Notes: a model not told the origin generated them from the letters alone. DNA of 64,000 bases from Candidatus Poseidoniales archaeon (GCA_038110525.1 JAYNJV010000005.1:4892-68891); one strand, 5' to 3'; shown: positions 6,179-48,618, counted from the stretch's first letter. A program made the numbers and translations.

Positions 6179-6275
6179 ACATTGGAAATACGAGAGCAAC
6201 ACGGCATCTTCATGCGTCGGCTTGATATGTAAGGCCAATGTGGATTAGAAGTAGGCGTAGCCCGAGGTGAGCAAA

Positions 6276-7040
6276 ATGACAGACGGCACAATGACCGATG
6301 AGGTTCGAATTAAGGAGTTAGAAGACGCTCTTGGAACAGAAACCGACCGACTTCAGAAACTGTTTGCAGCATACGAAACGCAAGAAAAGGAACTGGTCGA
6401 TGCAAGGGCTGAAATTGAAGTTCTCGAAAAAGAAATTATTGATAGGGAAATCGAAAAAGAATCTCTTGAATCCATTATCGCTGAAAAGGATGTCCGACTA
6501 CGTGAATTGGAACGAAAAGCAACGACCTCATTGAAAAGAGTCGAACATCTTGAGCCAGAACTTGAGAAAATGGAGGAAAAGTACACTCGAGAAAAAGATC
6601 GTCTCGGTAAAGTGTTTTCCATTGCTGAGGAGTTGGATAACGACCTTCGACTCGCAGTTGCTGAAATGTCAGCAAGAGATACATGGTACATGGACCACAT
6701 GGCACTCTTTGAAGACTTGAACAAGGCCATTAAAGCCCGTTACGATATGATTGAACGTGCGGTTGAAGCAGAACGAAAATCACAGCATTTGCGACGAGCG
6801 TTTACCGAGCGTGTTGAAGAACTTGTCGAGGCACGTGCAGGTGAAGGAGCAACCGAAGACGAACAATCAGAAGATGTTGAAGAAGAAGCACCTTCAGAAG
6901 ACGAGGTTTCATCGGAAGAAGCAGGAACTGAAGATGCATCAGAAGATAATGCATCAGACGAGGAAGCACTCGAAGACGAACCATCAGAGACTGCAACATC
7001 AGCAACATGGTCAGATGGAGAAGACCCCTGGGAATCATAA
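6276..7040 (+). CDS. coiled-coil protein with strongly acidic Glu/Asp/Ser-rich C-terminal tail, function unknown
   Basis: Long ORF with heptad-like E/K/L-rich sequence and a tail EDEQSEDVEEEAPSEDEVSSEE.... The start is ambiguous (GTG 6267 or ATG 6276). Confidence 0.5.
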   Translation: MTDGTMTDEVRIKELEDALGTETDRLQKLFAAYETQEKELVDARAEIEVLEKEIIDREIEKESLESIIAEKDVRLRELERKATTSLKRVEHLEPELEKMEEKYTREKDRLGKVFSIAEELDNDLRLAVAEMSARDTWYMDHMALFEDLNKAIKARYDMIERAVEAERKSQHLRRAFTERVEELVEARAGEGATEDEQSEDVEEEAPSEDEVSSEEAGTEDASEDNASDEEALEDEPSETATSATWSDGEDPWES

Positions 7041-7051
7041 TCGGTGAGGCA

Positions 7052-7915
7052 ATGGGCGGATTAGCCCCTGGAGGTTTAGCGCCAGTTTTGACGACTGGTT
7101 GTATGGGCATTAGTGCCCTCATCGTTGGCACAATCGTTGACCCAGTTGCAGGATTGGTTCCTTTTTTTGGTGTACTTTGTATCATGATCTCGTTGTTTTT
7201 TGCAAATTTTTGGAGAGACCCCGACCGACCAATTCCAAAAGACCGAGGTGTTGTTCTCTCCCCTGCAGATGGTCATGTGATGTTTATCAAGCGAGAACGT
7301 GCAGTGGGTAGGCGACCATCTCAATCCGAATTGAATGAAGATGTCATCATTCGTGACTCATTGACCGGTGATTGGTACCCTCAACCATCGGACAATCCTC
7401 TCCGATTTGAAACCGAACAACTTTTTGAAGAAGTACCTCAAGGTGAAGAATCGGAACTTGATGTGTGGCGAATTGCAGTCTTTATGTCTCCACTTGATGT
7501 CCATGTGAACCGAAGTCCCATCGATGGAGAACTGGTCATCACCGAACACAGAAAGGGAAAGGGCCTTAAGCGAGGCCCATTTTTGCCTGCGTTCAAGAAA
7601 GAAAGTGAATTCAATGAACGAGTGCGAAATGTGTTTGAAAACGATGGAGGAGAACGTTTCGAAGTATCTCAAATCTCCGGTGCATTAGCACGCACAATCG
7701 TTCCTTGGGTCATCGCTCCTTTTTCTCTGCGCCGGGGCCAGAGAATTGGCATGATTCGACTTGGTTCGAGAGTCGACGTTCGAGTAAAAGCAGTTGATTA
7801 TGTTCCCAATGTGGTTTCAGCAGAGGAAAAAAATGCCTTACATCCTAAAGGAGAATTTGTACAAGCTGGCTCAAGCATTCTTTTTGTACCAAATCATGTG
7901 GAGGATGATGAATGA
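7052..7915 (+). CDS. psd: phosphatidylserine (archaetidylserine) decarboxylase proenzyme
   Basis: VFMSPLDVHVNRSPIDG matches the PSD FLSPxDYHRxHxP block. GMIRLGSRVDV matches the LGS(T/R) self-cleavage site. N-terminal TM segments are present. GGTGAGG (7043-7049) lies upstream of ATG 7052. The longer track ORF overlaps the previous gene. Confidence 0.7.
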   Translation: MGGLAPGGLAPVLTTGCMGISALIVGTIVDPVAGLVPFFGVLCIMISLFFANFWRDPDRPIPKDRGVVLSPADGHVMFIKRERAVGRRPSQSELNEDVIIRDSLTGDWYPQPSDNPLRFETEQLFEEVPQGEESELDVWRIAVFMSPLDVHVNRSPIDGELVITEHRKGKGLKRGPFLPAFKKESEFNERVRNVFENDGGERFEVSQISGALARTIVPWVIAPFSLRRGQRIGMIRLGSRVDVRVKAVDYVPNVVSAEEKNALHPKGEFVQAGSSILFVPNHVEDDE

Positions 7916-8970
7916 AACGACTACTTCGTGCCCTTCCCGCGTTGATGGTATTGCTTTTGGCTGCAGCACCAGCATTGTATTACCAAGTCGGATTGTTTGT
8001 GTATTTTGAAATTGCAAAAACGGATTTGGATTGTACCAATCATGCCCCATACAATACTCCAGCAAATTTTGAACCCCATCTTTATCCAGAAAATATCGAG
8101 AGCTACACCCATCAATGGAACGACACCATCGTGTCGAATATCGATCAATATTACATGGAGTCATGGGAAAACGCGACAATCTATCTTGAAGAAGAGCCAA
8201 TCAGTATATCTGCGTGGTATGTTGAACAAGATACAGAATCACCATGGGTGATTCTCATCCACGGCATACGTTCGTGCAAAGCCAATCACGAAGTGCTCAT
8301 ACCCGCTGGAATGTTGTCAAAAAATGGATTCAATGTCTTGATGATTGACCTGCGCGATCACTGGCAGAGCACAGTCGAAGATGAGTTGGTTTCAGCAGGT
8401 CAAAGAGAATGGCGTGATGTGCTTGCTGCATGGTCTTGGCTTCAAGATGAAAAGGGCGTTCCGCCACAACATATTGGTCTCTACGGAGCTTCGATGGGAG
8501 CAGGTACGGCTGCCCTTACTTTTGCCCAAGAACCTTCAGTTCAATCTGTATTCCTAGATTCTGTATACTTTTCAATGGACACCATCTTACGAGAAGAACT
8601 CGAATACCAAGGCCTACCTCCTGTGTTGGTTGATGCTGGAATTTTTGCAGGTAAAGTGTATTCTGGCGATGATATTGTCGATGTTGAACCATATGAGGCT
8701 GCAGAAAATCTGAATGGACGTTGGATGTTTATTGCACAATCAAACAACGACACTCGTATTCGATTGCATCACGGCAACAATATGTGCGAAGCAGCCATGG
8801 AGCACAGTGAACATGTCGAGTGTTGGTTTGCTGATTCTGCTGTACAATTTACTACAGATGATGGTGAAGACGCAATGCTTGCCCACGTGACATTGATGCT
8901 TACACAACCTGAAATGTATGAACAAAAATTGGTTGAATTCTTTACGCAATCGCTTTCTATGGAGGTTTGA
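7912..8970 (+). CDS. membrane-anchored alpha/beta-fold hydrolase
   Basis: N-terminal TM segment (LPALMVLLLAAAPALYY), HGIRS oxyanion-like region, and GxSxG elbow GASMGAG. Its ATG overlaps the psd stop (ATGA at 7912-7915). Confidence 0.65.
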   Translation: MKRLLRALPALMVLLLAAAPALYYQVGLFVYFEIAKTDLDCTNHAPYNTPANFEPHLYPENIESYTHQWNDTIVSNIDQYYMESWENATIYLEEEPISISAWYVEQDTESPWVILIHGIRSCKANHEVLIPAGMLSKNGFNVLMIDLRDHWQSTVEDELVSAGQREWRDVLAAWSWLQDEKGVPPQHIGLYGASMGAGTAALTFAQEPSVQSVFLDSVYFSMDTILREELEYQGLPPVLVDAGIFAGKVYSGDDIVDVEPYEAAENLNGRWMFIAQSNNDTRIRLHHGNNMCEAAMEHSEHVECWFADSAVQFTTDDGEDAMLAHVTLMLTQPEMYEQKLVEFFTQSLSMEV

Positions 8971-8975
8971 AGAAG

Positions 8976-10115
8976 ATGACCGAACAACCATCATTACTTT
9001 CGCCGACCTCCAAGCGCTTAAGAATTCACGACTTGGTCAAAGCACCAGAAAACACGCCTTATGCACAAAAAAAGAAGCACGCTTGGGATGCAAGAGACCC
9101 TGCGTTGGTGTATCAAACGCCTGAAGTGACAGCTGATGGTTCAATTTGTCAAGCTGCTACAATTATCTTGAGAACCAAAGGCTGCCACTGGTGGTGGTCA
9201 TCAGGCTGCACTTTTTGCGGCTACTTTAATGACACAAGGGATGATGTGACTTCAGCAGATTTGCATGCACAGTGGGAAGCAGCAAAGAAGAAGTTAGACC
9301 AATTTTCAGAAGTCGATATGGTCAAGGTCTATACTTCGGGTAGCCTGCTTGAGGACAGAGAAATACCTCTTGATTTTCAAGAGACCGTCCTAAGGGATTG
9401 TCATACCTTTCAAAAAGAATTGATTATTGAAAGCCGATGTGAGCAACTGACCAAAGAGAAACTTTCGTGGGCAGTATCTCACAACCCGAACTTCACAGTA
9501 GCGATTGGTCTTGAAGCCTATGATGATGAAGTACTACGGTTTCACGTCAATAAAGGATTCACAACGGCATCCTGGCATCGTGCAGTTGAAAATTTGAGAG
9601 CACACGGTCTACGTGTGAAAACATATCTCATGTTCAAACCTCCATTCATGAGTGAAGCCGACGCTCTATATCATTCAGTGTCATGGATTTCTTCCGTAGC
9701 CTCACTGTCTGATGAGATTTCTATCAACCCAATGAATGTTCAAAATGGAACTGTCATCGACAGACTCTATCGAAACGGCGATTATCATCCTCCGTGGTTA
9801 TGGTCTCTTGTTGAAATGATTCATTTGAGTCATGCAGCATTGGAAAAAAGCAACACAAAGACACGGATCATTGTTCACCCTACAGCAGGAGGAAAACTTC
9901 GGGGTTCACACAATTGCGGGCAGTGTGATGCAGAGGTTGTTGCAGCCATCGAACGTTATGCAGTATCTGCATCGCTTGAGGAATTTAGTGGCCTCACTTG
10001 CGAATGCAAACATCGATGGTCAATGGAGATTGAATTGGAACAAAAGATGCCATTGCCGTTAGGAATTTCCAAGCATCGTCGAACATCCAAAATCGATAAA
10101 CTTCGTTCCCCATAA
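8976..10115 (+). CDS. archaeal radical-SAM protein (Elp3-like; TIGR01210/RaSEA-like, archaeosine-pathway candidate)
   Basis: Cys triad GCHWWWSSGCTFCGY, followed by an Elp3-like barrel region (IGLEAYDDEVLRFHVNKG). GGAGGT at 8961-8966 lies upstream of ATG 8976. Confidence 0.55.
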   Translation: MTEQPSLLSPTSKRLRIHDLVKAPENTPYAQKKKHAWDARDPALVYQTPEVTADGSICQAATIILRTKGCHWWWSSGCTFCGYFNDTRDDVTSADLHAQWEAAKKKLDQFSEVDMVKVYTSGSLLEDREIPLDFQETVLRDCHTFQKELIIESRCEQLTKEKLSWAVSHNPNFTVAIGLEAYDDEVLRFHVNKGFTTASWHRAVENLRAHGLRVKTYLMFKPPFMSEADALYHSVSWISSVASLSDEISINPMNVQNGTVIDRLYRNGDYHPPWLWSLVEMIHLSHAALEKSNTKTRIIVHPTAGGKLRGSHNCGQCDAEVVAAIERYAVSASLEEFSGLTCECKHRWSMEIELEQKMPLPLGISKHRRTSKIDKLRSP

Positions 10116-10211
10116 CATCAAAAATTTCCAACTCTTGCTTGAATGCTATAACTGAATCTTTATGGATACCCGTCAAGTGGCGTGAGCATACCTCTATGGT
10201 GAGTGAGTACG

Positions 10212-10484
10212 ATGACAGACACATCCGTTCTTCCAGACACAACAGTCGGAAACAATGAACCAACCACATCGAGAATGATCTTGGTGCTCATGGTCGTTGC
10301 AATTCTTGGTTTTTTTGCTCTTTTTTCAAACATTTTTGGCTGGGATAATATCCCGCTTCTCGGCGAAATTGTACCTTTAATCGGTAACCTCGGTGGAGGA
10401 GGAATTTGGTATTACCTCTTGGGATTCATCATTGGAATCGGTGCAATTGTTGCAACCCTTGTAGGAGAAATTCTTGTCGATTGA
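10212..10484 (+). CDS. small 2-TM Gly-rich membrane protein
   Basis: 90-aa ORF with two hydrophobic helices and a GNLGGGGIWYY segment. It ends 9 nt before the next gene. Confidence 0.45.
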   Translation: MTDTSVLPDTTVGNNEPTTSRMILVLMVVAILGFFALFSNIFGWDNIPLLGEIVPLIGNLGGGGIWYYLLGFIIGIGAIVATLVGEILVD

Positions 10485-10493
10485 GGTGTAGAA

Positions 10494-12479
10494 ATGGATA
10501 TTGTTTTCTTCTTTGGTTTCGCTCTTATCCTCGCTTTGTACTTTCTTTCCCAATTTCTCGCTAAAGGAATCGGGGAGATGAAGTCAGTCTTCACTCAAAT
10601 TGGGTTGTTCATTCTCAAAAAGAATCCACCCGGCCTTGTTGACCTCTTCAACGATGAAGATGGTAGTGGTTCTAAGACTTGGATGAATTTCGGTATGCTT
10701 TGGTTCTTCTTTGCAGGCATTCTCGGATTCCTCGTTGGCTGGCACACTTACGACCCATCAGCACTCAATTCCTTGTCAAGTGTTGGTTGGTCGTACGATG
10801 ACGGTTCCGCCCTGCTCGAATTTACCGTCAATGCACTCAACACCGCATTACTCCTCGGCCTTATTGGAGGTGGTATGGTGGTCGTTTCTCGAAACGCAAA
10901 TGGTCGATTGGCAAGTGAATCCAACGCTTCGATGGTTGCTGTCCTCATTTCAGTGCTTCTCATCACCCGACTAATACTACCAGGTTTGATGGGTATTTTT
11001 GATATCGATACCTCATCAACAGGTGTTGTGATTCTATTGCTTTCTCTGGAAACACTTGCCATTGCCGCATTACTTATCCCAGTTCTCATTAATCTACTTG
11101 TGACCATTGGTCAATCAAACGGTTCGTCTCTTATGACAGGTTCATGGTTTGTCATTATGGCCGTCACCGTCAAGATTTTCGGATTGATGTTCATCTTCTT
11201 TGGTGAACTTGCAGACTCCACACAAACCGTTTGGCTTGGAGAACGAGTTGCAAATGGTTGGGCTATTCTTGCGTTGTTGATTGGAATGGGTTATTATGTG
11301 GTTCCCAAAGTTGCCGAGGCCCCAATTTGGTCCCCTTCCTTGCGAACTGCGAGCATGGTGCTCCTCTTCGTCACTCCCAGTGTCTTCTTTATGACCTCAT
11401 CCGACAGCAGTAATTTCTTGTCCAATGTAGGGGCCATCCTCCTAACATTGTCGATGCTACCACTCTTTGCAGCGAGTGTTAATATTCTCATGACTGCAAC
11501 TCATGGTTTTGACAAAGTGATGAATCATCCAGGCGCACTTGCTGTTCTTCTGGCATTTTTCCTCCTACCGTTTTTCGTGGTTGGTTCCTATTTCACAGCG
11601 ATGGATGTCTTCGTTGGAGCAGGTGAAATGACAAGCCTCGCAGCCGTTATCGATGTCGGAGCAATGTTCACGATCGGAGGCTTGGTCCTCGTTGGAACTG
11701 TTTACACAACCTATCCGTTAGCGTCTGGTAAAAAGTTACCATCCTCATCGACTGCACATCTATCTGTCTACATGATTTTCGTCGGTGGACTTGCATCAAC
11801 AATTGCCTATACTATTGGTGAATTTTCAACAATGACCGTAAATGCGCTCGCTCTCGAAGATGTTACTGCTGATGTTGGTGGATACTACCTCACCGGGTCG
11901 GTGTTGTTCTATATTCTCCCCATTGGTGCACTCTTTGCAACACTTCTCATGATTCGAACAGGCATTTCGAGGTCGGCCCAAGACGTCATGGCACAAGAAG
12001 CTGATATCAAATCGTACACGCTGGTTTCCGGCGCAAAAACAACCATTCGAGACCTCATCGGTCGGGGTGTTGGCATCGATACCGTTCTGGTGCTCGCCCA
12101 AGATGGGGATGCAGAAGGAGGCACAACACTCATATCTGTTGGTGCTACTTTGCATGACGATGAAATCACCGAAATTCCAGATAAAGAAGTAGACCACCTC
12201 CTTGTTCTTCTTGCCAATCATCTCGTTGATGAAAAGAAATCTGTTTTTGATTTGTTCCGCCAATCCGACAAGGATGCAAGTGGTTCAATTGATGACCAAG
12301 AATTGAGGGATATTTTTTCAGGCTTGGGACAAGACCTTACTGATGCACAAACTACAGCATTAGTGCGCCGATTTGATATCGATGGAGATGGCTCGATCAA
12401 CCTTCCAGAGTTGGACATTCAAATCGCTCTTACCAATGCGGCATACAATGTATCATCATCCTCAGAAGAAGAAGAATGA
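10494..12479 (+). CDS. polytopic (about 13-14 TM) membrane protein with C-terminal EF-hand pair; function unknown
   Basis: 661-aa ORF with GAGGTG at 10483-10488 before the ATG. Two canonical EF-hand loops: DKDASGSIDDQE (12267-12302) and DIDGDGSINLPE (12375-12410). Confidence 0.7.
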   Translation: MDIVFFFGFALILALYFLSQFLAKGIGEMKSVFTQIGLFILKKNPPGLVDLFNDEDGSGSKTWMNFGMLWFFFAGILGFLVGWHTYDPSALNSLSSVGWSYDDGSALLEFTVNALNTALLLGLIGGGMVVVSRNANGRLASESNASMVAVLISVLLITRLILPGLMGIFDIDTSSTGVVILLLSLETLAIAALLIPVLINLLVTIGQSNGSSLMTGSWFVIMAVTVKIFGLMFIFFGELADSTQTVWLGERVANGWAILALLIGMGYYVVPKVAEAPIWSPSLRTASMVLLFVTPSVFFMTSSDSSNFLSNVGAILLTLSMLPLFAASVNILMTATHGFDKVMNHPGALAVLLAFFLLPFFVVGSYFTAMDVFVGAGEMTSLAAVIDVGAMFTIGGLVLVGTVYTTYPLASGKKLPSSSTAHLSVYMIFVGGLASTIAYTIGEFSTMTVNALALEDVTADVGGYYLTGSVLFYILPIGALFATLLMIRTGISRSAQDVMAQEADIKSYTLVSGAKTTIRDLIGRGVGIDTVLVLAQDGDAEGGTTLISVGATLHDDEITEIPDKEVDHLLVLLANHLVDEKKSVFDLFRQSDKDASGSIDDQELRDIFSGLGQDLTDAQTTALVRRFDIDGDGSINLPELDIQIALTNAAYNVSSSSEEEE

Positions 12480-12488
12480 GGGTCTCTT

Positions 12489-13769
12489 GTGAAAATTGGT
12501 TTGGTTGGCAAACCAAATGTCGGTAAATCGACGTTCTTTAGTTCCTCAACATTAGCCCATGTTGACATTGCGAATTATCCTTTTTGCACCATTGACCCCA
12601 ACATAGGTATTGCTTACGTACGTTCACCTATGCCATGTCCTTGCCTTCAATTACGAGAAAAAGCAGAATCTGAGGGGCGTGGCCACCAATATCCATCGAG
12701 TGAAGAGCGAAAAGGCAGTATTTGTCAACCACGAACTGGTTTTTGTGTGGGCCACCAACGGTTTATTCCTGTTCAACTTGTCGATGTCGCTGGACTTGTT
12801 CCAGGAGCCCATGAAGGAAGGGGAAGAGGAAACGCATTTCTGGCTGATTTGTCTCACTGTGATGCTTTGATTCACATTTTCGATGCATCGGGTTCGACAG
12901 ATATAGAAGGTCAATTCTTGGGCTTTGACCAATCGTATGAAAGTATAGTCCAACGCTCCAAAGAAGATATACAATTTTTACAAGATGAATTAGATTCATG
13001 GATTTTCCAACTCCTTGCCGAGGGTTGGAGTCGAGGAACAAGAAGAGTTCAATCAGAAGGTGAGCGTGGCTTTGCATCATTTTTGCTTGATAAATTGAGT
13101 GGTATTGGGGCTCAATCGGTGCATATCAATCAAACAATTCAAGACTTCATACTACAAGGTGGAGATATATCAACACCGTGGTCGTTGAATGAAGCCCAAC
13201 AAAAAAATCTTGCAACAATGTTACGCAATCGAATATTTCCAATTGTGTATGCAGGGAATAAATGTGATAAATCATTCAATCTCCAAAGTCTAATGCAAGA
13301 CCTTCATGTTCAATTTACACCTTGCTTATCCGATTTAGAATTGGCACTTCGAAGGGCTTCAGAATCCAAAATCATTGATTATATTCCAGGTGAAAATACG
13401 TTTTCAATCCGAGATCGAGCTGACCTCAATGATGCCCAAAAGAAAGCGCTTGAACAAATGAAAAACCTTCTTGAGAAACATGGTTCTACAGGAATTCTTC
13501 CGTTACTTGAGCACATAATTTTTGATATTCTTCATCAGGTTGTTGTCTATCCCGTCCAAGATGAAAATCACTGGGTCGATGGGGAAGATCGGATTTTACC
13601 TGATGCCTTCCTCGTTTCATCAGATTCAACTTGCAAAGAAATGGCGTATAAGGTTCACACCGACCTTGGGGAAGGTTTCATCCGAGCCATTCACGGAGTG
13701 ACAAAACGTACGATTGGTGCAGATTATGTTGTGCAAAACAACGATGTCATCAAGATTCATTCAAAATGA
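12489..13769 (+). CDS. Obg-like GTPase of the YchF/Ygr210 type with C-terminal TGS-like domain
   Basis: G1 GKPNVGKST, G3 DVAGLVPGAHEG, G4 NKCD, and a C-terminal beta-grasp-like NDVIKIH. GTG start. Confidence 0.8.
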   Translation: MKIGLVGKPNVGKSTFFSSSTLAHVDIANYPFCTIDPNIGIAYVRSPMPCPCLQLREKAESEGRGHQYPSSEERKGSICQPRTGFCVGHQRFIPVQLVDVAGLVPGAHEGRGRGNAFLADLSHCDALIHIFDASGSTDIEGQFLGFDQSYESIVQRSKEDIQFLQDELDSWIFQLLAEGWSRGTRRVQSEGERGFASFLLDKLSGIGAQSVHINQTIQDFILQGGDISTPWSLNEAQQKNLATMLRNRIFPIVYAGNKCDKSFNLQSLMQDLHVQFTPCLSDLELALRRASESKIIDYIPGENTFSIRDRADLNDAQKKALEQMKNLLEKHGSTGILPLLEHIIFDILHQVVVYPVQDENHWVDGEDRILPDAFLVSSDSTCKEMAYKVHTDLGEGFIRAIHGVTKRTIGADYVVQNNDVIKIHSK

Positions 13770-14156
13770 TCAATGACCTTTAGGACGCTCATATTGAGGC
13801 GTCAATCGAGCCATATCACCTGAGAATTTTCCACTTCTGTAAATAAACCACACAGGGCCGAGGGCGGTTAAGAGAAGAATCAGAATAAGGAAAAAAGTTC
13901 CCCAAGGGTCAACGTTGGAGAGGAACATCACCCAAAGAGTCCAAAGAATTGGAATGTAAAGTAGAATGCTGTATCTCCTTGCAACAATTCCGAATCGTGC
14001 GTTTGCAAGGTCGCCACTGTACATGTTGGGCGCATCTTCTTTGGATATCAGTCCGAGGTCAAGTCCACAACGAACACAAACCTGGGTTTTTGGCCCATTG
14101 CCATGAATAAATTGTTCGCGCGGATATGTACTGGCACAGTGTCTGCACGTTGGCAT
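13770..14156 (-). CDS. zinc-ribbon membrane protein
   Basis: CRHC...CVRC zinc-ribbon pairs are followed by two TM helices. Its stop directly abuts the GTPase stop (TGATCA at 13767-13772). Confidence 0.5.
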   Translation of the reverse strand: MPTCRHCASTYPREQFIHGNGPKTQVCVRCGLDLGLISKEDAPNMYSGDLANARFGIVARRYSILLYIPILWTLWVMFLSNVDPWGTFFLILILLLTALGPVWFIYRSGKFSGDMARLTPQYERPKGH

Positions 14157-14184: not shown

Positions 14185-16407
14185 TCATTCTTCAACAATG
14201 CGTTTCCTGTTTAAGAAATTTGAGAAAATAATCTCTCCTGATTGGGAACCAACGGACTCTGGATGAAATTGAACACCATAGACCGGTAATTTTGAATGTG
14301 CAATCGCCATGATTTCTCCATGTTCATCGGTTGATGTGATAATGAAATCATGTTTATCTTTTGGTTGCAACACAAGAGAATTATACCGAGTAAATTTCCA
14401 AGGCGATTGAATTTTATTGAACAAACCTGTAGCACCGTGATGCATTTCGCAAGGCTTGCCGTGAACTGGTCCAAAGGGTGATTCTAGAAGTTCGAATCCA
14501 CCATGCAGTCCAATTGCTTGGTGGCCTAAACACACACCAAGCACGGATTGTTTGAGTTTACCTTGCACTGCGAGTTGTGCAATCGTGTAACTAAATAATA
14601 CATTTTCAGGTCGTCCAGGACCTGGGCCTATGACGATAAAATGAGCCGGATGACTCGTGATCCATTGCAGAATCTCATCTTCTTTCATATCTGAAAAAGG
14701 AGGTAGTCGTGCTTGCACCATTTGAACAGAGTACCCTTTAGCAGTGATAGAATGCACAATATTCATCGAGAATGAATCTAAATTATCTACAAAAAGGACA
14801 TCAGCATTGATTGGAGCAATATCGAGGCGTAAATCTCCTACGAGATTTTTAATTCGCTGCCAATTCCTTTCTCTTGGCAAACTGAAAATTTTGATAGGAT
14901 GTTGTGATGATTTTTGCTGACTGGGAATCCATCCAGCTGCATGCAGTAATGGTCTTGCTTTTTGAAATGCCTCATCGACTTCAGAATGTGGATCTGATGA
15001 GATTGTGATCCCACCACCAGCAGCGATTTTTCCGTACCATTGTTTACCATCAAATGTTGCCTCAAGGGTTCGAATGAGAATATTCCATGTGGCGTTGTTG
15101 GAACATGGGTCGAACCAACCAATTGAACCAGTCCAAAATGAACGTCCTTGTTGTTCGATTTGATTGATGACATGACAAACCATGGTTCGAGGACAACCAG
15201 TAATTGAACCACCAGGGAATACAGCCTCAATTGTATGTGAAGATGATACATCTCTCTTGAGTTTGCCAGAAATTCGACTTACAAGATGTTGAACGCTGGC
15301 ATACTGCTCAATATCAAAGCGGTCAACTTTGACACTTCCAACTTCGCAAATTAGTCCGAGGTCATTCCTCATGAGGTCAACAAGCATGCGATGTTCAGCC
15401 CGTTCTTTGTCATCATTGAGGAGCATAGAACGGGCAATTTCATTTTCATGTTCGTCAACTCCAGTATGTATAGTCCCCTTAATTGGAGCAGTATGGATGT
15501 AATCGTCAATTGATTCAAGCAAACACTCTGGCGAACTTGAGACAAGGGATATACCTTCATCTTTGATTTCAAAAAAAGCTGAATATGGTGCAGGATTCAT
15601 ATCGTCTAACGCACAGAAGGTTTGCCAAGGATTGCTTTGTAAACGACCTTGCCAAACTTGACCAATGTTGACTTGATACACGGTACCTTCGACAATTTTT
15701 CGTTGAATATGTTCAATATTTTCAACATAATGACCATCGGTTAATCGTGTTGAAAAATCCATTTGTTGGAATTTTCGCTGAAGGCTCTCTTGTTTCAAAT
15801 CAAATTCAAGTGGCGGGTTCCAATTCGATGAGGCGATTTTAAAGATGGAAAATTTTTGTTCGAGACAATCGTAGACGCACCCTTGTTCAACCAAGTAAAA
15901 ACAAGCCAGAAGTTCTCCTTCATTTGGGTTGTATTGAAGGTGAAGAGGTTGAGTCCATTGTACAACATCGTACGACAATGCAGCAACCCAGAACGGTTGT
16001 GCAGGTAACTTTTGATGTGGTATCGATTCAAAAAGAGAATTTGGAGTGAGCAGCCGTAATTCATCGATAGCCTTCGAAAGACTGTCAAACTTAAACCGCT
16101 GTTTGTGATACCAAGCACCATGCTTCCATTCTTCAATTTCTAAATCAAAGTTCATTGGTTGTTGATTGATGTTGATGTTGGAGAAGTCAGGTTCGGCTTG
16201 CTGATTGATTGATGATGTATCCGGTTGTCGAATCGTTGCTCTCAACCTTGAAGGGCCACAAAGCAAAGAAAAGGTTGCTAAATGTGTTGCTGGGCCACCA
16301 GAGTGAAGCAGCACACAATCTGGGCTGCCGAATCTGTTGGCTTTTTCTCCCAGCCAGCCTTGATCGTGCCACAAATTTTTGAGTTGTAATAATTCATGCA
16401 CAACCAT
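14185..16407 (-). CDS. pabB: aminodeoxychorismate synthase, fused component I (PabB, N-terminal) and glutamine amidotransferase (PabA, C-terminal)
   Basis: Chorismate-binding motifs: SPECLL, APIKGT (Lys typical of PabB rather than TrpE), FPGGSITGCP, GGGITISSDP. GATase triad motifs: GVCLGHQ and VQFHPES. ATG at 16407 overlaps the pabC stop by 1 nt. The 47-aa N-terminal extension in the track ORF is rejected. Confidence 0.8.
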   Translation of the reverse strand: MVVHELLQLKNLWHDQGWLGEKANRFGSPDCVLLHSGGPATHLATFSLLCGPSRLRATIRQPDTSSINQQAEPDFSNININQQPMNFDLEIEEWKHGAWYHKQRFKFDSLSKAIDELRLLTPNSLFESIPHQKLPAQPFWVAALSYDVVQWTQPLHLQYNPNEGELLACFYLVEQGCVYDCLEQKFSIFKIASSNWNPPLEFDLKQESLQRKFQQMDFSTRLTDGHYVENIEHIQRKIVEGTVYQVNIGQVWQGRLQSNPWQTFCALDDMNPAPYSAFFEIKDEGISLVSSSPECLLESIDDYIHTAPIKGTIHTGVDEHENEIARSMLLNDDKERAEHRMLVDLMRNDLGLICEVGSVKVDRFDIEQYASVQHLVSRISGKLKRDVSSSHTIEAVFPGGSITGCPRTMVCHVINQIEQQGRSFWTGSIGWFDPCSNNATWNILIRTLEATFDGKQWYGKIAAGGGITISSDPHSEVDEAFQKARPLLHAAGWIPSQQKSSQHPIKIFSLPRERNWQRIKNLVGDLRLDIAPINADVLFVDNLDSFSMNIVHSITAKGYSVQMVQARLPPFSDMKEDEILQWITSHPAHFIVIGPGPGRPENVLFSYTIAQLAVQGKLKQSVLGVCLGHQAIGLHGGFELLESPFGPVHGKPCEMHHGATGLFNKIQSPWKFTRYNSLVLQPKDKHDFIITSTDEHGEIMAIAHSKLPVYGVQFHPESVGSQSGEIIFSNFLNRKRIVEE

Positions 16408-17177
16408 CACTCCAATGAACTCCAAGATATCTTGTTGCTTTGATGTTGAATGTAGAGTTGATGAATTTCGTTGGTGATGCTTTGACTTGAACCAATTGGG
16501 ATTGAATCGATTTCGATGATTTGAGCAAAACCCACCCCTGTTCCGCACACAAATAATTCCCTACAACTCCGAATCATTCGCTCGGTTAAGCAACCAAATT
16601 GTATCGCAAATCCTTGTTGCTCCAATTTATTTTGGATTGCTTCGAAGGTTGTGCTTGCAACTCCACCGAATTGTTGAGATGAAATCCATAACACACCGTC
16701 TTCAGAAATGAGGCAGGGCGTTGCTCGGTCAGCATCAACTACATTGTTTTCATGCATGAATAATGCAATATCAAACTGGTGTTGATTTGCAATATCTCTT
16801 GCTTCCAAATATGGGCGCCATGCTCCATGCTTGCAACCGGTTATCGCTCCAGACCAACGTGGTGCTGCAATACTCATAGCTCGCAAATATGCTTGATAGG
16901 GTGGCAGTGTGCGTGTTGAAATTTTTACATTGCCATCGGCATGGACTTCTATTTTGAGGAGTTCATTTGGTCTGTGTGGTTGAGATTCGTTCTTGAGATG
17001 TGGCTGCATTTGTTTGAATACTTCAGATTCTAATGAAAGAGGCAATTGAAGGCCTAAACGGTCCGCATGATGTTTCATTCGATTGATATGAAGTCGGCCA
17101 TCGAGAAGATTTCCACGCCCATCCCATACGCAGGTCGTAAATACTGCGTCAGCAGGTTGCATCTCAGCCAAAGCCAT
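16407..17177 (-). CDS. pabC: class IV aminotransferase-fold protein, aminodeoxychorismate lyase candidate
   Basis: Fold-type IV-like C-terminus (RELFVCGTGVGFAQIIEID). The call rests partly on position directly upstream of, and translationally coupled to, pabB. ATG at 17177; the track start at 17192 is TTG. Confidence 0.55.
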   Translation of the reverse strand: MALAEMQPADAVFTTCVWDGRGNLLDGRLHINRMKHHADRLGLQLPLSLESEVFKQMQPHLKNESQPHRPNELLKIEVHADGNVKISTRTLPPYQAYLRAMSIAAPRWSGAITGCKHGAWRPYLEARDIANQHQFDIALFMHENNVVDADRATPCLISEDGVLWISSQQFGGVASTTFEAIQNKLEQQGFAIQFGCLTERMIRSCRELFVCGTGVGFAQIIEIDSIPIGSSQSITNEIHQLYIQHQSNKISWSSLE

Positions 17178-17188
17178 CGAGTATGCCC

Positions 17189-20100
17189 TCAAAGTAGGTC
17201 GTCCAAAAATGATGTGTCAATTGTTGATGGTGTATATTGTTGAGGGTTTTGCGTTGGTTGGCTGAATTGTTGAGTTGGCTGTTGTACTGGTTGAAGGACT
17301 GGTTGAGCGGGTTGGTACACTTCTCTTCCATATGCACCTACTTGTTGGTAGGATTGTGGTTGCTCCGGTACTTGTGTTGATTGTGGCGAACCATATCCTG
17401 TTTCGTTCCAATCGGAATTGGTTTCAATGCCCCATGTTGATTCTTGTAATTCCCAATCCTTCGACACTCGACTTGAACCGCCAGAACCTCCACGGCCACG
17501 AACGACCATGATAAGAATGATGAGCAGGAGAAGAGCTAAGCCAATAGCAAGAAGTAATTCTTGGCTCATCAAGGCATTGATTGAGAACTCGGTCTCGTCA
17601 GAATCTTGGTTGGTCGAACCCGTAGAATCTTCAACGCTGTTCAGCACGACTGGAATCACATCTTTTTCCATACCTAAGGTATTGAACGGTGCAACAGCAA
17701 TGTACCACCGTGATGTGTTGACTAAATCCGGATAGATTTCATTGTTGATGACAAATGATGTAGCACCTGCAATTTCGATGACAAAATCGGCTTCATCTGT
17801 GGTTGAATATCCTTCATTCAAAATGTAAATTCTCATTCCATCTACTCTGTCATCAACTGGATTTTGCCATTGCACTAAAATGTCCTTCTCATTGACCCAA
17901 GATACTTTCACATCCGTTGGTTTGCTGAGCGGGTCGTTGGCTGAGAATCCACCGTTGTCGATGGATTGACCTTGGGCAACAAGAAGGTTTGACTTGTACG
18001 CGTTTCCAGAAGCGTCCACCGCTACAACAGCAATCCAGATATCCAAGCCAGCAAGTATTGGCGTATCGCCTGCGAGGAGTTCAATTCGCACTGGTAACTC
18101 AGGGGCCCGATGAAGAACAACGAGAGGTGTTGTTGGTCCATCTCCGCCAACGCTGACATCTGAGAACGCCCAAGTAGCACCATAGATTTCGTAAGATGAA
18201 ATATCGGATGCATCAGAGAGGTCGAAATCAACAAATATCGCACTACCATCATCGTTTGGCACGTCTGAAATTTCAACAGAGTCGAGTCGATTAGGTGGTG
18301 TGTTATCGTTGATGTTGTCAATTGGCGTTACTGTTGCTTGAATCAAATCGTCGACATGGACGTTTCCTTTCAAGTCATGGACTGTCACCACAACATAGAG
18401 TTTGATGTCCGGTTTAATCAGCTGAGGCGTTGTAGCAAGTAGGTCTTGACCACCATAGAGGCCGGTGGAAATTGTCAATTCAATCGGATTTGTTTTTTCG
18501 TCGATCCACTGCTTTGAGAAGGTAAAACATCCGCAGGTTTCAGCATTCGTGCCACGTGATGCGTACAACCATGAAATATCATTCAATGGTTTATCGGCGA
18601 CCCAAATCGTGTAGGATGAGAAGTCATCTGCTTCGGAAGGAGACCATATGACATCGATGGCCGTTCCGTCGTCATCGGGATGGTCAAAGGCCATGATATT
18701 GGTAATTCTATCAGGAATTGAGCCCTTACCCACTACATTTTGCAACGGTGTAGCCGTTACGAGAGTCACGGCAGTGAGGTCGGCATTGAGCCATGCATCG
18801 AAGGCCACAACACCAATTGCATACATTCTTCCATCCACCAATGGAATACCGTCGAGTTGATTGATGATGACTTCGGTTTCATCGCAAGGACTGACGATGG
18901 TCGCTTGTGAAAAAGATGTAACATCTCCTTGTTCAATATCCGGCAGTTCAACATCAATATCCCATGGAGACATGTACACGGCATAAAATGAACAGTCAGA
19001 TGCTGTGCTTTCATTCCAACGAACGACGATTCTTCCACCTTCGTCGTCAGGTACATCTTCGGCTGAAGTGCCTTCAACTGGTGGTGGGGCTTGTTCGTCA
19101 TTCAGGTCTCCAGTTGGAACAATAGGTCCGATAACTGTCACATCTGATTTGTTCTCTTGGCCCGATTCATCTTCACATGTAAATCCAATCCAATATGGTG
19201 TTTGTGGGGTAAGTGTGATGATTGAAGTATTACCTTCATTGACATCAAATGTCGAATGAGCCTTCAAACCGACCACGTCATTAAATTGTGATTTCGACAC
19301 GTAGACATTGGTTGATGCAAGGTCCAAAGCGGTACATCTTGCCCACTCTAATTCTATTTCACCATCTGCACCGTTTAAGTGTGGTTGTGCCATTGCCCAT
19401 AAAGGAGGTCGTGGGATTTCATCGGAAGGTGATGCTGGCCCAATTTGTGAAGGAATGTTACCCCATCGACCATCGTTGTATTGTGTGACCACAAGGGCGT
19501 AATAATCGGTTCCATCGACAAGGGATTGTCCATTTGCAGTTGAAACATCCGTTGAAGTTCGACTGTGTAATGATATGATTTTATCTGGCGTTCTTTGACT
19601 TAGGTCGAGTTCTGTTGGAGCTATTGACCATGGCCCTTCGTTGATGAAGACAAGGTATTGTGAAAAATCAGGGTCGTGAATGAGTGACCATTCGACCATC
19701 AATGTTGAACCACCATCATCTGGCCGATCGTAGAGCGAATTCATTTGAATTGGAGTATCTCGACGAATAAAGTCGTAACTTAATCGAATCAATATGGAAC
19801 CATTTTGAGGCGATTGGAGCGTAAGTGACACATGTTGGGTGTTGTTGAGTAACATTCCAGAGTCAATTGCATATTGCAAGTTCGATTGTAAATTGACATC
19901 GTTTGATAGGTTGATGATGGCGTTGTATTTCAAATCGACAAGTTGCGTCCAAACCATGGCGTTATCCACTGGAGAGGTAAACATGAGTGGCATTGTAGAG
20001 AACTGTGTGTTGTGAGGGCCAGTAACATCACCGGCTAGATTAAGTTGCAATGGGTTGGTTGAATCGATGAGTGAGATTGTTTGGCCTACATGAGTTTGCG

Positions 20101-36099: not shown

Positions 36100-36212
36100 G
36101 ACTATGACTCTTACCTATGTTGATTTTGTGTTTGAGGAACGTCGTTGTCAAACTTTCATAGCGGTGGGTTGAAAACACACCGTTTCCGCGTTTGATATAT
36201 CGAGGTTATCCT

Positions 36213-39200: not shown

Positions 39201-39716
39201 CTCCATGTACCAGATGTTATTCGAGACGAATTGAATATGTTCAAGGACAAACAGCGATTAGAGAGGCAGATGAATCTGCAATCGATGTATTCTAAATCAA
39301 ATGGTAAAGAAATCACTCAGGAGTTCTTGCAACAGAAAATTAACGAAGTTATCGCTTCATTTTCCACGTGGAAGAGTCCGATTGAAATCAAAGCAGTCAA
39401 CGATATCAATACACCAGAAATTGAAGAATTTTTTGTACGCCATGAAGAAGTATTTCAAGAAATATCAGAGGTGAAGCAGAAGAATGGAGCAACGACTCCG
39501 AGAACCGAGATCGCTGGTAAGAAGTATTATCCCGAAGAAAATGACATGCAGTTATTGCACTATACAAAGTCGATTTCGGAACTCGCATCAAAAGATATCG
39601 GCGTCGTTCTCATTGCATCATATGACAATGATTTCACCTTTATCTCCCGTTCTTTGGAAGAAACCTTTGGATTTTCGGTTGTCCGAAATCCCAGAACATT
39701 GTCAGATTGGTTGTGA
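36213..39716 (+). CDS. large helical protein with C-terminal PIN-domain nuclease
   Basis: 3.5-kb uninterrupted ORF. The C-terminal 238 aa (39000-39713) carry PIN acidic elements in order: VIIDTNILV, DVIRDEL, EENDMQLL, SYDNDFTF. The start is ambiguous (TTG 36192, ATG 36213, ATG 36228). Confidence 0.75.
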   Translation: MIELRMEQCLKEVLGYPKQNRLKIAVRSSSWELLDKPHKGILSFAMNEEEVPPEDDEKGSTSQPVRSRGRRLRNKSRGQASAMSPFEYLPELDDMEQFELSSASTLAILLIRKQMNDQQWNDDFDALEQVMRNDCLEKGVHPVWHMIAEKTNYLTQFLAFSKVRPKSETATIQFDVTKVAINPTKSSQIVELLTHALATTIDANLQVAMNRLVSQLQSSSGHVSKVEQQLLELSGDHKFLSIVLKFFIQDSLDDDELAFLQGSKSQVAKLLYIYHQFQNKDYSSWKEVIELNGENELQLFLLETLWMNIPDEASELTSGQLEDGIQRIQHISHAKAQTEKIKWWKMSALQKEGEGSVALEVLQDLSISSTTDIDALLKFLTIFPQEETSSWLEKYLDVIDVDGLSAILVSNHYEGGLQLHIAQKIFDTHGLDLEQERSFLLQAFVCGLDFDRLIQLFHLDPVLSMSYPYDALFCYHATPSGLSVNDEKRFHELRLHSIQSLNDSQRPNYLSDATEELLLLMEGIQSESNALMKTLGNKTYIDFLPIINALHHGIAEVNIQQNKLEAVKLRVDNTENLSIIERHLFNVLFATISVNNIRQSFHNRMEDTDQRKVLSSIVNQPYFTLTILHTIQELVLDYDLGIPELVEWYQHWSPSSPWQTLSRAAHHVTRNEQLNAAREYKRIADQIHQVRIQSNQGKQSEEDVSYYIEQGVFGIEQEIALYRKALIHYAHAEHWSEALELLEKNASLKSALTKRFQLYLHVSDLASRQQSGPATRLILNHVQKKQEMADELHDNQRYRETYDEEELETLRSYTTSHAIHLPEKPFNGRVIAAHTELSRKLSRNRDEFERRYQTLAKEKKLDTMAVYSLAKDASQESPLTGLKILERAQHQTNITSKQRDSLQAAELNLFKSYESEIALKNRSQLRQLNLKPLVIIDTNILVNALIEEVYAHLGIIVGHQRSTMKQSDSLGDVLPNSGLGDFFRFLKNQADSGKIFLHVPDVIRDELNMFKDKQRLERQMNLQSMYSKSNGKEITQEFLQQKINEVIASFSTWKSPIEIKAVNDINTPEIEEFFVRHEEVFQEISEVKQKNGATTPRTEIAGKKYYPEENDMQLLHYTKSISELASKDIGVVLIASYDNDFTFISRSLEETFGFSVVRNPRTLSDWL

Positions 39717-48561: not shown

Positions 48562-48618
48562 TCGGAAATGTAGCAAACATACTCAAATAGAACATTTTAA
48601 GCAAAATGGCGGCATAGT

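What the first reader, a model, noticed from the sequence alone, without database searches (positions are those of the whole stretch)
10212..13769. Polytopic membrane protein with a textbook EF-hand pair, coupled to a small TM protein and followed by a GTPase
The 661-aa product of 10494-12479 has about 13-14 hydrophobic segments. Its soluble C-terminus contains two perfect 12-residue EF-hand loops: DKDASGSIDDQE (12267-12302) and DIDGDGSINLPE (12375-12410). Both show D1, D3, S/D5, G6, I8 and E12. EF-hand pairs fused to large integral-membrane domains are uncommon in archaea, and I cannot name the membrane domain. The segment GMGYYVVPKVAEAPIWSPSL (about 11284-11343) reminds me, from memory, of the MYY(L/V)VP(K/R)....LYS helix of cbb3-oxidase CcoN/FixN and NorB. 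However, the membrane part has only about four His and none in the expected ligand contexts. If it is related, it would be a ligand-less derivative. The gene sits 9 nt after a 90-aa Gly-rich 2-TM protein, with GAGGTG 6 nt upstream, and 9 nt before a Ygr210/YchF-type GTPase. This could be a Ca2+-gated transporter or sensor module. A CAX Ca2+/H+ exchanger is also in the window (51988-53127).
Basis: partly seen in the sequence, partly recalled or inferred. Interest (0 to 1): 0.65.

Follow-up and report, generated by a model that had tools for sequence, protein, structure and literature searches.

The report
Cofactor-less oxidase-fold protein with EF-hands
Marine Group II archaea all keep a membrane protein with the fold of the catalytic subunit of respiratory oxygen reductases but without any of its metal-binding residues, here fused to a calmodulin-like calcium-binding tail, so an old respiratory scaffold seems to have been reused for an unknown, non-respiratory job.

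Summary
The 661-aa product of 10494-12479 has 13 TM helices and a cytoplasmic tail with a canonical EF-hand pair. The membrane domain has the heme-copper oxidase (HCO) subunit I fold and is closest to cbb3 CcoN (Foldseek E 1e-8, TM 0.70-0.76; hhalign 97.8% against a genuine CcoN; Pfam COX1 above threshold in two relatives). None of the six canonical His ligands is conserved, and no cytochrome partner gene is adjacent. The family is small, discrete, under strong purifying selection, and found only in Poseidoniales. It always sits in the same core: RaSEA, a TATA-like box and leader hairpin, a 90-aa 2-TM orphan protein, the HCO-like gene, then a YchF-type GTPase, with 9-14 nt gaps inside the unit. 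The EF pair is an accessory: 8 of 20 divergent representatives lack it and many carry a C-terminal SAP domain instead or as well. The invariant core is the 13-TM body, its cytoplasmic loops and a post-TM motif. Best reading: a non-redox pseudo-oxidase membrane platform, calcium-responsive in this lineage. The function is unproven. It is a new variant of a known kind.

The parts
8967..10115 (+). RaSEA-type radical SAM gene (archaeosine biosynthesis). It is the conserved upstream neighbour and is separated from the unit by a promoter-bearing spacer.
   Evidence: NCBIfam TIGR01210 E=1e-85, above cutoff. It lies upstream in 87 of 87 loci and in the divergent loci L088-L090.
10155..10163 (+). AATCTTTAT, a TATA-like box conserved across the order. 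Putative archaeal promoter of the small-gene/HCO-like/GTPase unit.
   Evidence: The motif AAT(C/G)(C/T)TTA(T/A), or GAACGTTTAT, is present in the RaSEA-to-small-gene spacer of essentially all loci, MGIIb included. That it acts as a promoter is inferred from position and consensus and has not been shown.
10181..10211 (+). Leader hairpin between the TATA-like box and the start codon. It is weak in this clade, and its 3' arm overlaps the GGUGA Shine-Dalgarno-like motif.
   Evidence: RNAalifold on 32 leaders predicts 6 pairs, 4 of them with compensatory double changes. Single-sequence folds: window -8.0 kcal/mol (z -1.1); relatives -10.6 to -14.6 kcal/mol (z -1.1 to -2.9).
10212..10484 (+). 90-aa Gly-rich 2-TM protein with no Cys or His. 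An order-specific orphan and the presumed partner subunit.
   Evidence: It ends 4-14 nt before the HCO-like gene in the 11 loci examined from all branches; the automated gap median over 91 loci is 14 nt. Conserved motifs are G..EP..S, GE(L/I)VPL and GIW(Y/F)(Y/F)L.G. dN/dS is 0.008. Its homologues are all stand-alone, 81-146 aa, Poseidoniales only, with no Pfam domain.
10494..11966 (+). Residues 1-491: one extra N-terminal TM helix, a conserved cytoplasmic loop, and a 12-TM core with the heme-copper oxidase subunit I fold (CcoN-like). There are no metal ligands.
   Evidence: Foldseek: top 7 hits are CcoN, E 1.4e-8 to 7.6e-8, TMt 0.70-0.76, and all 50 listed hits are HCO/NOR catalytic subunits. 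phmmer against 9g83_t gives E=7e-5. hhalign of the family against the genuine CcoN P0221 gives 97.8%, E=9e-13.
10821..10823 (+). F110, at the position of the helix II axial His of the low-spin heme.
   Evidence: mafft and hhalign alignments to P0221 H60.
11241..11246 (+). E250-R251, at the position of the helix VI CuB His (the GHN motif). Invariant within Poseidoniaceae.
   Evidence: phmmer aligns the His with E250. mafft and hhalign align it with R251.
11385..11396 (+). F298-F299-M300-T301, at the position of the helix VII CuB His-His pair.
   Evidence: the register is uncertain by about 3 residues. There is no His anywhere in residues 85-336.
11649..11660 (+). I386-G389, at the position of the helix X His-x-His (ligands of the high-spin and low-spin hemes).
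   Evidence: There is no His in residues 346-421.
12015..12089 (+). Residues 508-532: post-TM cytoplasmic motif Y.L..G.TTIR.L.GRGVG.DT. It is the most conserved part of the tail across the family.
   Evidence: G513, R519, G525, D529 and T530 are invariant or nearly so in 20-31 divergent sequences. No Pfam or PDB match. Only a short helix is modelled, at low confidence.
12183..12446 (+). Residues 564-651: calmodulin-like EF-hand pair, cytoplasmic. Loops at 12267-12302 and 12375-12410.
   Evidence: Pfam PF13499 E=4.8e-10. Calmodulin E about 4e-18. pLDDT 83-88 with helix-loop-helix twice. K+R counts of 10-19 on the inside against 0-6 outside in all 20 representatives place the tail in the cytoplasm.
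12465..12476 (+). EEEE acidic C-terminus, recurrent in the family.
   Evidence: An EEE-type end is seen in many family members with different tails. Only 3 of 47 window ORFs end in three or more D/E.
12489..13769 (+). YchF-related (Ygr210-type) GTPase with a TGS domain. Last gene of the unit.
   Evidence: NCBIfam PRK09602 E=7.5e-131. It follows the HCO-like gene at a median of 12 nt in 91 loci. A convergent gene abuts its stop.

Best explanation
Shown: the 661-aa protein is a paralogue of heme-copper oxidase subunit I, closest to the C-family subunit CcoN of cbb3 oxidases. It has lost all six metal-ligand histidines and the cross-link tyrosine, and it has no cytochrome partner gene. Therefore it cannot be an O2 or NO reductase of the known kind. 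It is under strong purifying selection, found only in Poseidoniales, and always encoded directly after a 90-aa 2-TM orphan protein and directly before a YchF-type GTPase. That unit is preceded by a TATA-like box and a leader hairpin conserved across the order. Inferred: the small protein and the HCO-like protein form a membrane complex, a pseudo-oxidase, that works as a non-redox platform. Its working surface is the conserved cytoplasmic face (the N-terminal loop at residues 25-57, the loops at 133-146 and 271-284, and the post-TM motif at 508-532) together with a flexible acidic tail. The tail carries lineage-specific adaptor modules: a calmodulin-like EF-hand pair in this organism, and a SAP domain in many relatives. 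In this lineage, a rise in cytosolic Ca2+ would load the two canonical loops and switch the tail's binding to the cytoplasmic face or to a soluble partner. The co-transcribed GTPase is the prime candidate partner. My confidence that it is a cofactor-less HCO subunit I is about 0.95. My confidence in the platform/regulator mechanism is about 0.35.
For: Fold: Foldseek with two independent AF2 models gives CcoN as the top 7 hits, followed by NorB, ba3 and aa3 (second model pLDDT 80.2, pTM 0.73). Sequence: phmmer against 9g83_t E=7e-5; hhalign of the family against P0221 97.8%, E=9e-13 over 368 columns; Pfam COX1 above its gathering score in P0135 and P0142. P0221 is a genuine CcoN: Pfam COX1 E=1.7e-78, and its downstream gene has CQYCH and CIGCH heme-c motifs. 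Ligand loss: the six His columns hold His in 0, 2, 1, 0, 0 and 4 of 20 family members, and the window protein has no His in the equivalents of helices II, VI, VII and X. Functional gene: dN/dS 0.017-0.043 for the TM part, 0.058-0.079 for the EF part and 0.008 for the small gene. Discrete family: 102 clusters among 1.84e9 proteins, and relatives in 204 Poseidoniales species genomes. Operon: gaps of median 14 and 12 nt in 91 loci, with a conserved promoter-like box only upstream of the small gene; the core order is kept while the outer flanks change. Cytoplasmic tail. EF and SAP modules are optional. Residues invariant across the family lie in cytoplasmic loops or at cytoplasmic helix ends (R133, E142, N200, T204, W279, S280, N330, T334, P408, R519, D529, T530) or are aromatic packing residues. 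No charged or polar mid-membrane residue is invariant.
Against: There is no direct evidence for any interaction: not small protein with HCO-like protein, not tail with cytoplasmic face, not with the GTPase. All loci come from one archaeal order, so the conserved gene order could partly reflect inherited synteny; RaSEA and the GTPase are housekeeping genes. The family profile built from close relatives alone found nothing in PDB sequences, so the window protein's own sequence signal for HCO is weak (NCBIfam E=0.013). The argument about the cytoplasmic face rests on one-dimensional topology and modest differences in conservation. I could not inspect the model coordinates for cavities. Calcium binding is predicted from sequence only. 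No expression data could be obtained.
Confidence: 0.45

Rival explanations
1. One reading: a Ca2+-gated ion channel or transporter. With the hemes and copper gone, the remnants of the HCO proton pathways or the vacated cofactor pockets would form an ion path (H+, Ca2+ or Na+). The cytoplasmic EF pair would open or close it, working alongside the Na_Ca_ex exchanger in calcium homeostasis in seawater.
For: In eukaryotes, EF-hand pairs fused to polytopic membrane proteins are typically regulators of channels, carriers or oxidases (established knowledge). HCO subunit I is built around internal proton pathways. The tail is cytoplasmic, where Ca2+ is low and therefore informative. Within Poseidoniaceae there are invariant charged residues at the outer ends of helices: E186, E238, E250-R251 and D371. 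A Na_Ca_ex (CaCA-type) exchanger is in the window.
Against: 8 of 20 divergent representatives have no EF pair, so any gating by Ca2+ is lineage-specific. The intramembrane charges are not conserved beyond Poseidoniaceae; the family-wide invariants are cytoplasmic-face residues and aromatics. The ligand positions are filled with Phe (F110, F292, F298, F299), which suggests packed pockets and not an aqueous pore. The only transporter folds in Foldseek are MATE hits at TM 0.13-0.16.
Confidence: 0.2
2. A structural or membrane-organising protein that is unrelated to its gene neighbours. Examples would be an assembly or stabilising factor for respiratory or other membrane complexes, or a membrane anchor that tethers DNA or other cargo through the tail. 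The gene order would be kept by inheritance within one order, and the EF pair would be a constitutive Ca2+-stabilised fold and not a switch.
For: RaSEA and the YchF-type GTPase are housekeeping genes with no known membrane link. All loci come from a single order. SAP domains, which typically bind nucleic acid, end many family members, which fits a tether. Pseudoenzymes often act as scaffolds (general knowledge).
Against: Inside the unit the gaps are 9-14 nt, with stop codons overlapping SD-like motifs. The only promoter-like element is upstream of the small gene, and the core order survives where the flanks are rearranged. That looks like co-expression and not mere neighbourhood. No respiratory genes lie nearby in any locus inspected.
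Confidence: 0.2
3. It is still a redox enzyme that binds heme or another cofactor through non-histidine ligands (Met, Tyr, Glu).
For: Poseidoniaceae members have several invariant Met, Tyr and Glu residues in TM helices: M64, M68, M222, M288, M300, Y267 and E250.
Against: None of these is conserved across the family. There is no electron-donor partner: the small protein has no Cys or His, and no adjacent gene has a CXXCH motif. Genuine CcoN genes such as P0221 are followed by a c-type cytochrome gene.
Confidence: 0.03

Closest known systems
CcoN, catalytic subunit I of cbb3-type (C-family) cytochrome c oxidase (e.g. PDB 3MK7, 8SMR, 6XKW, 9G83)
   Same: It has the same 12-TM helical core (TM-score 0.70-0.76). 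There is recognisable sequence homology around helices VI-VIII, including the YY(V/I)(V/I)PK...P(I/V)(W/Y)S motif. Both ends of the core are cytoplasmic.
   Different: All six His ligands and the cross-link Tyr are missing. There are no CcoO, CcoP or CcoQ partner genes. It has an extra N-terminal TM helix and a conserved cytoplasmic loop. It carries a 170-aa cytoplasmic tail with an EF-hand pair. It is encoded with a 2-TM orphan protein and a GTPase.
NorB of cytochrome c-dependent nitric oxide reductase (PDB 4XYD, 3O0R)
   Same: It is the second-best structural match (E 1e-5 to 5e-5, TMt 0.70-0.74). It belongs to the same superfamily.
   Different: NorB has heme b, heme b3 and FeB ligands and a NorC partner. 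None of these is present here.
Calmodulin C-lobe and EF-hand-regulated membrane proteins of eukaryotes (NOX5/DUOX/Rboh oxidases, Aralar/SCaMC carriers, TPC channels)
   Same: It has a canonical paired EF-hand, about 35% identical to a calmodulin lobe, fused to a polytopic membrane protein and facing the cytoplasm.
   Different: It has one pair only, placed at the C-terminus after a flexible acidic linker. The membrane partner has the HCO fold, for which no EF-hand fusion turned up in the literature searched.
Unannotated HCO-like family fam02696 of Halobacteria (Meheust et al. 2022, PMC9258230)
   Same: It is another archaeal lineage-specific family with only distant homology to HCO subunit I. 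The same paper notes Poseidoniaceae- and Thalassarchaeaceae-specific modules with calcium-binding domains.
   Different: That family co-localises with genuine HCO/NOR genes, whereas this one never does in the loci seen.

Membership tests
Heme-copper oxidase superfamily, subunit I (Pfam COX1 PF00115) | 12-TM helical core with the subunit I fold | tested here: met
   Foldseek with two models gives only HCO/NOR catalytic subunits among the top hits, best E 1.4e-8, TMt up to 0.76.
Heme-copper oxidase superfamily, subunit I (Pfam COX1 PF00115) | Sequence homology to the family model | tested here: met
   The window protein itself has no Pfam hit and only NCBIfam E=0.013. However, phmmer against CcoN 9g83_t gives E=7e-5, family members P0135 and P0142 exceed the COX1 gathering score, and hhalign of the family against a genuine CcoN gives 97.8%. 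The profile built from close relatives found no PDB hit.
Heme-copper oxidase superfamily, subunit I (Pfam COX1 PF00115) | Six invariant His: two for the low-spin heme, one for the high-spin heme, three for CuB (FeB in NOR) | tested here: not met
   His is present in 0, 2, 1, 0, 0 and 4 of 20 family sequences at the six columns. In the window protein these positions are F110, E250/R251, F298-T301 and I386-G389.
Heme-copper oxidase superfamily, subunit I (Pfam COX1 PF00115) | Active-site cross-linked Tyr (helix VII in the C family) | tested here: not met
   F292 aligns with the Tyr six residues before the HH pair in the phmmer alignment. The register is uncertain, but no conserved Tyr lies in that helix.
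cbb3 oxidase / cNOR operon | Adjacent gene for a membrane-anchored c-type cytochrome (CcoO/CcoP or NorC, with a CXXCH motif) | tested here: not met
   The neighbours are a Cys-free 90-aa protein and a GTPase in 91 of 91 loci. In contrast, the genuine CcoN P0221 is followed by a gene with CQYCH and CIGCH motifs.
EF-hand (calmodulin-like pair, PF13499) | Two 12-residue loops with oxygen ligands at positions 1, 3, 5 and 12, Gly at 6 and a hydrophobic residue at 8 | tested here: met
   DKDASGSIDDQE and DIDGDGSINLPE. Pfam scores above the gathering score. The loops are conserved in 12 of 20 representatives.
EF-hand (calmodulin-like pair, PF13499) | Helix-loop-helix twice, packed as a pair | tested here: met
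   AF2 models helices 584-591/601-610 and 617-627/637-651 with bridging residues at 599 and 635, at pLDDT 83-88. Foldseek also finds calmodulin lobes.
EF-hand (calmodulin-like pair, PF13499) | Measured Ca2+ binding and a Ca2+-dependent conformational change | not testable with these tools
   This needs ITC, a 45Ca overlay or NMR on residues 564-661.
YchF/Ygr210-type Obg-like GTPase (downstream gene) | G domain with a P-loop, a YGR210-like G4 domain and a C-terminal TGS domain | tested here: met
   NCBIfam PRK09602 at 436.6 bits against a cutoff of 387. Pfam MMR_HSR1, YGR210-like_G4 and TGS. P-loop GKPNVGKS.
   No Pfam or NCBIfam transporter hit. The only transporter folds in Foldseek are MATE at TM 0.13-0.16.

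The most novel reading that the evidence does not exclude
The HCO subunit I fold has been converted, across a whole order of abundant marine archaea, into a cofactor-free signalling platform. Together with a 2-TM partner, it would couple cytosolic Ca2+ (through EF hands) and, in relatives, nucleic acid (through SAP) to the activity or membrane recruitment of a ribosome-associated YchF-type GTPase. That would be a membrane-to-translation control circuit with no described counterpart, and the first non-redox function for this fold.
Probability: 0.15. Interest if true: 0.85.

Novelty: new variant of a known kind. Interest (0 to 1): 0.65.

Why it matters
Subunit I of heme-copper oxidases is one of the most studied membrane protein folds, and it is known only as a heme- and copper-bearing catalytic core. 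This family has shed every cofactor ligand yet is kept under strong purifying selection in one of the most abundant archaeal groups of the surface ocean. That implies a second, non-respiratory use of the fold. It also has a practical consequence. Automated pipelines already label at least one member "cbb3-type cytochrome oxidase subunit 1", which could wrongly credit Marine Group II archaea with a high-affinity oxidase and a low-oxygen lifestyle. Finally, the optional EF-hand and SAP tails give a natural experiment in how adaptor modules are added to a membrane scaffold. The canonical, cytoplasmic calmodulin-like pair is a concrete handle on calcium signalling in archaea.

Tried and rejected
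1. A profile of the membrane domain from 11 close relatives found nothing against PDB sequences, although the single sequence did. I therefore did not rest the homology claim on sequence alone, and settled it with fold search, hhalign and Pfam hits in relatives.
2. The 20-sequence alignment A3 was too diverse for the genome scan. A closer alignment (A4) worked, but its patterns favour Poseidoniaceae, so the figure of 204 species is a lower bound and cannot be read as presence or absence.
Co-transcription is therefore inferred only.
4. The linker at residues 495-575 has no Pfam hit, and its only PDB hit is a meaningless one to RecJ2 (E=0.075).
5. The small protein has only DUF3021 at E=0.04, below threshold. 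A profile search found only stand-alone orphans, so the idea that it is a remnant of a known HCO subunit has no support.
6. The convergent 128-aa gene has a weak FixQ hit (E=0.11), which I rejected as a chance match to a TM segment.
7. Taxonomy of the nearest genuine oxidase P0221: the contigs are short and unnamed. Only its CcoO-like neighbour was informative.
8. Literature searches for an earlier description of a ligand-less HCO, of an EF-hand/HCO fusion, or of cbb3 in Marine Group II found none.
9. I considered predicting the complex of the small protein with the HCO-like protein. I did not attempt it because paired alignments from loci are not accepted by the structure tool.

Full report
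**1. Observation**

All three ORFs exist as described. Homologues fix the small gene's start at ATG 10212, giving 90 aa. The 661-aa ORF is 10494-12479. The GTPase starts with GTG at 12489. Both junctions have the same form: a TGA stop overlapping a Shine-Dalgarno-like GAGG, then 9 nt to the next start (tGAGGTGtagaaATG and tGAGGGtctcttGTG).

The two EF loops are at exactly the stated coordinates. Pfam EF-hand_7 scores above its gathering threshold (E=4.8e-10), and calmodulin chains match at about 4e-18. Both AF2 models show two helix-loop-helix units with the inter-loop bridge at pLDDT above 80. Hydropathy and both models give 13 TM helices. The membrane part has four His.

**2. What the membrane domain is**

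Five lines of evidence agree.

- **Single-sequence search:** the membrane domain alone hits a cbb3 CcoN chain (9g83_t) at E=7e-5 over residues 222-361. NCBIfam gives a weak cbb3 subunit I/II hit at E=0.013.
- **First model:** with a 22-sequence alignment (pLDDT 69.6), the top seven Foldseek hits are CcoN at E about 5e-7, TMt 0.70-0.76.
- **Second model:** with a 31-sequence alignment (pLDDT 80.2, pTM 0.73, all five models 76.8-80.2), CcoN scores E 1.4e-8 to 7.6e-8, followed by NorB, ba3 and aa3. All 50 listed hits are HCO/NOR catalytic subunits.
- **Pfam:** the COX1 model scores above its gathering threshold in two divergent family members, P0135 (43.2 bits) and P0142 (42.0 bits, nearly full length).
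- **Profile comparison:** hhalign of the 20-sequence family profile against P0221 gives 97.8%, E=9e-13 over 368 columns. P0221 is a genuine C-family oxidase: COX1 E=1.7e-78, with GHN, HH and HxH motifs, and its downstream gene carries CQYCH and CIGCH motifs.

One caveat: a profile built only from close relatives found nothing in PDB sequences. The sequence signal is therefore thin for this clade.

**3. Ligands**

In a mafft alignment of 20 divergent family members with P0221, the six canonical His columns hold His in 0, 2, 1, 0, 0 and 4 of 20 sequences. In the window protein the equivalents are as follows:

| Canonical ligand | Window residue(s) |
|---|---|
| Helix II heme His | F110 |
| Helix VI CuB His | E250/R251 |
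| Helix VII CuB His-His | F298-T301 |
| Helix X His-x-His | I386-G389 |

The exact register varies by 1-3 residues between methods. This does not matter for the conclusion, because there is no His at all in residues 85-336 or 346-421. The neighbouring small protein has no Cys or His, and no neighbour has a CXXCH motif. The protein is an HCO by descent and fold, but it is not an oxidase or NO reductase of any known kind.

**4. The family**

An exhaustive HMMER search of 1.84 billion representatives found only 102 clusters, about 20 of them full length. Below the weakest family member there is a clear gap before the first genuine HCO, at E=7.8e-4. Source names are Poseidonia, Poseidoniaceae (MGIIa), Thalassarchaeaceae (MGIIb) or unspecific archaeal labels. 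A scan of species-representative genomes found relatives in 204 genomes. All are Poseidoniales apart from one contig binned as Verrucomicrobiales that carries the whole archaeal cluster.

The genes are under strong purifying selection:

| Region | dN/dS |
|---|---|
| TM part | 0.017-0.043 |
| EF part | 0.058-0.079 |
| Small gene | 0.008 |

**5. Architecture across the family**

Every member has the extra N-terminal helix, a conserved cytoplasmic loop, the 12-TM core and a post-TM motif (G-x-T-T-I-R-x-L-x-x-x-G-x-G-x-D-T). R519, G525, D529 and T530 are invariant.

The rest of the tail varies:
- EF pair only, as in the window's clade and in P0126.
- EF pair plus a C-terminal SAP domain (PF02037, E 1e-9 to 4e-7) behind an acidic linker.
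- SAP only (P0142, P0155).
- Neither (six representatives).

Many members end in EEE. The positive-inside bias is strong in all 20 representatives (K+R 10-19 inside, 0-6 outside), so the tail is cytoplasmic. This agrees with the known topology of CcoN. Residues invariant across the family are aromatic packing residues or lie at the cytoplasmic face. No mid-membrane polar residue is invariant.

**6. Gene context**

In 87 of 87 loci the order RaSEA, small gene, HCO-like gene, GTPase is kept. Close relatives share the whole 14-kb neighbourhood. In the divergent branches only this four-gene core persists, while the flanks become Band_7 genes, an MFS transporter or the L11-L1-L10-L12 ribosomal operon.

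The small protein is better conserved than the HCO-like protein (57-67% against 44-56% identity; 35-44% against 26-28% in the distant branches). Its family consists only of stand-alone Poseidoniales orphans.

Over 91 loci the gaps are:

| Junction | Median gap |
|---|---|
| Small gene to HCO-like gene | 14 nt |
| HCO-like gene to GTPase | 12 nt |
| RaSEA to small gene | 98 nt |

The 98-nt spacer holds an AAT(C/G)TTTAT box conserved in all branches. About 22 nt further on is a hairpin with compensatory changes, followed by GAGGTG and the start codon. The natural reading is a three-gene transcription unit with its own archaeal promoter. This is an inference, because no RNA data could be obtained.

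**7. Mechanism**

Shown: the fold, the loss of ligands, purifying selection, the operon-like organisation, the cytoplasmic tail and the canonical EF pair.

Inferred: the small protein and the HCO-like protein form a non-redox membrane complex. Its conserved cytoplasmic face and modular tail are the functional surface. In this lineage the EF pair makes that surface responsive to calcium, and the GTPase is the most likely partner.

I put about 0.95 on the identity and about 0.35 on this mechanism. The rivals are:
- **A Ca2+-gated ion path (0.2).** It is weakened by the optional EF pair, the lack of conserved intramembrane polar residues, and the Phe residues at ligand positions.
- **A structural or tethering role unrelated to the neighbours (0.2).** It is weakened by the tight coupling inside the unit.
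- **A residual redox enzyme with unusual ligands (0.03).**

**8. Comparison with what is known, and novelty**

The closest known proteins are CcoN and NorB for the body and a calmodulin lobe for the tail. The protein fails the defining catalytic features of the HCO family while passing the tests of fold and homology. I found no description of this family, or of any EF-hand/HCO fusion, in the searchable literature. One paper notes in general terms that Poseidoniales have lineage-specific calcium-binding families, and that Halobacteria have an unannotated HCO-like family. One public record already annotates a member as "cbb3-type cytochrome oxidase subunit 1", which is misleading. I class it as a new variant of a known kind. 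It would be more than that if a non-redox signalling role were shown.

Noticed in passing
window 10155-10211; leaders of L002-L090 (alignment A6): The spacer upstream of the small gene carries a TATA-like box (AAT(C/G)TTTAT) conserved across the order. About 22 nt downstream is a leader hairpin whose stem changes by compensatory substitutions between clades (TTGACCCC/GGGGTCAA, ATTGCC/GGCAAT, TTGTCCC/GGGGCAA). In the window's clade the hairpin is weaker and overlaps the SD-like GGUGA.
   Followed up: partly
window 13770-14156 (-): A 128-aa protein with an N-terminal CxxC...CxxC zinc-ribbon-like motif and two TM segments. Its gene is convergent with the GTPase gene and abuts it. It is conserved in that position in 79 of 87 loci (Poseidoniaceae) but absent from the MGIIb contexts. 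Its only Pfam hit is a sub-threshold FixQ match (E=0.11), probably chance.
   Followed up: partly
cluster 3; L002/L003/L091 junctions: One 90%-identity protein cluster mixes 660-aa HCO-like proteins with 400-430-aa YchF-type GTPases. In several relatives the HCO-like stop and the GTPase start overlap by 4 nt (gene coordinates). Fused or run-through gene calls in some assemblies probably bridged the two families.
   Followed up: no
L050 (NZEQ01000068.1): A contig binned as 'Verrucomicrobiales bacterium' carries the complete archaeal core RaSEA, small gene, HCO-like gene, GTPase at 51% identity to the window protein. It is very likely a misbinned Poseidoniales contig.
   Followed up: partly
L029 and L033 (PAGK01000004.1, PAGK01000020.1; MAG MED790): The same MAG holds two full copies of the cluster on different contigs, both about 53% identical to the window protein. 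This is either a mixed bin of two strains or a true duplication.
   Followed up: no
L088 1264-1944: In an MGIIb context where the HCO-like protein has no SAP domain, a separate 226-aa SAP/HeH-domain protein is encoded about 4 kb upstream of the cluster.
   Followed up: no
window 17189-25525 (-), 36192-39716 (+), 48512-51961 (+), 6267-7040 (+): Three very large ORFs (2778, 1174 and 1149 aa) and a highly acidic 257-aa ORF (31% D+E) have no Pfam match at E<=0.001. The giant ORF is syntenic in relatives (2751-2773 aa in L002/L003).
   Followed up: no
window 47854-48561 (+) and 7007-7915 (+): Only two other window ORFs end in three or more acidic residues: a CDP-alcohol phosphatidyltransferase (...APEEE) and phosphatidylserine decarboxylase (...EDDE). 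Both are membrane-lipid enzymes. Whether an acidic C-terminus means anything for membrane proteins in this organism is unknown.
   Followed up: no
window 14185-16548 (-): A fused aminodeoxychorismate/anthranilate synthase (Chorismate_bind plus GATase). The longest ORF here is 787 aa, against 679-746 aa in relatives, so the listed GTG start is probably too far upstream.
   Followed up: no
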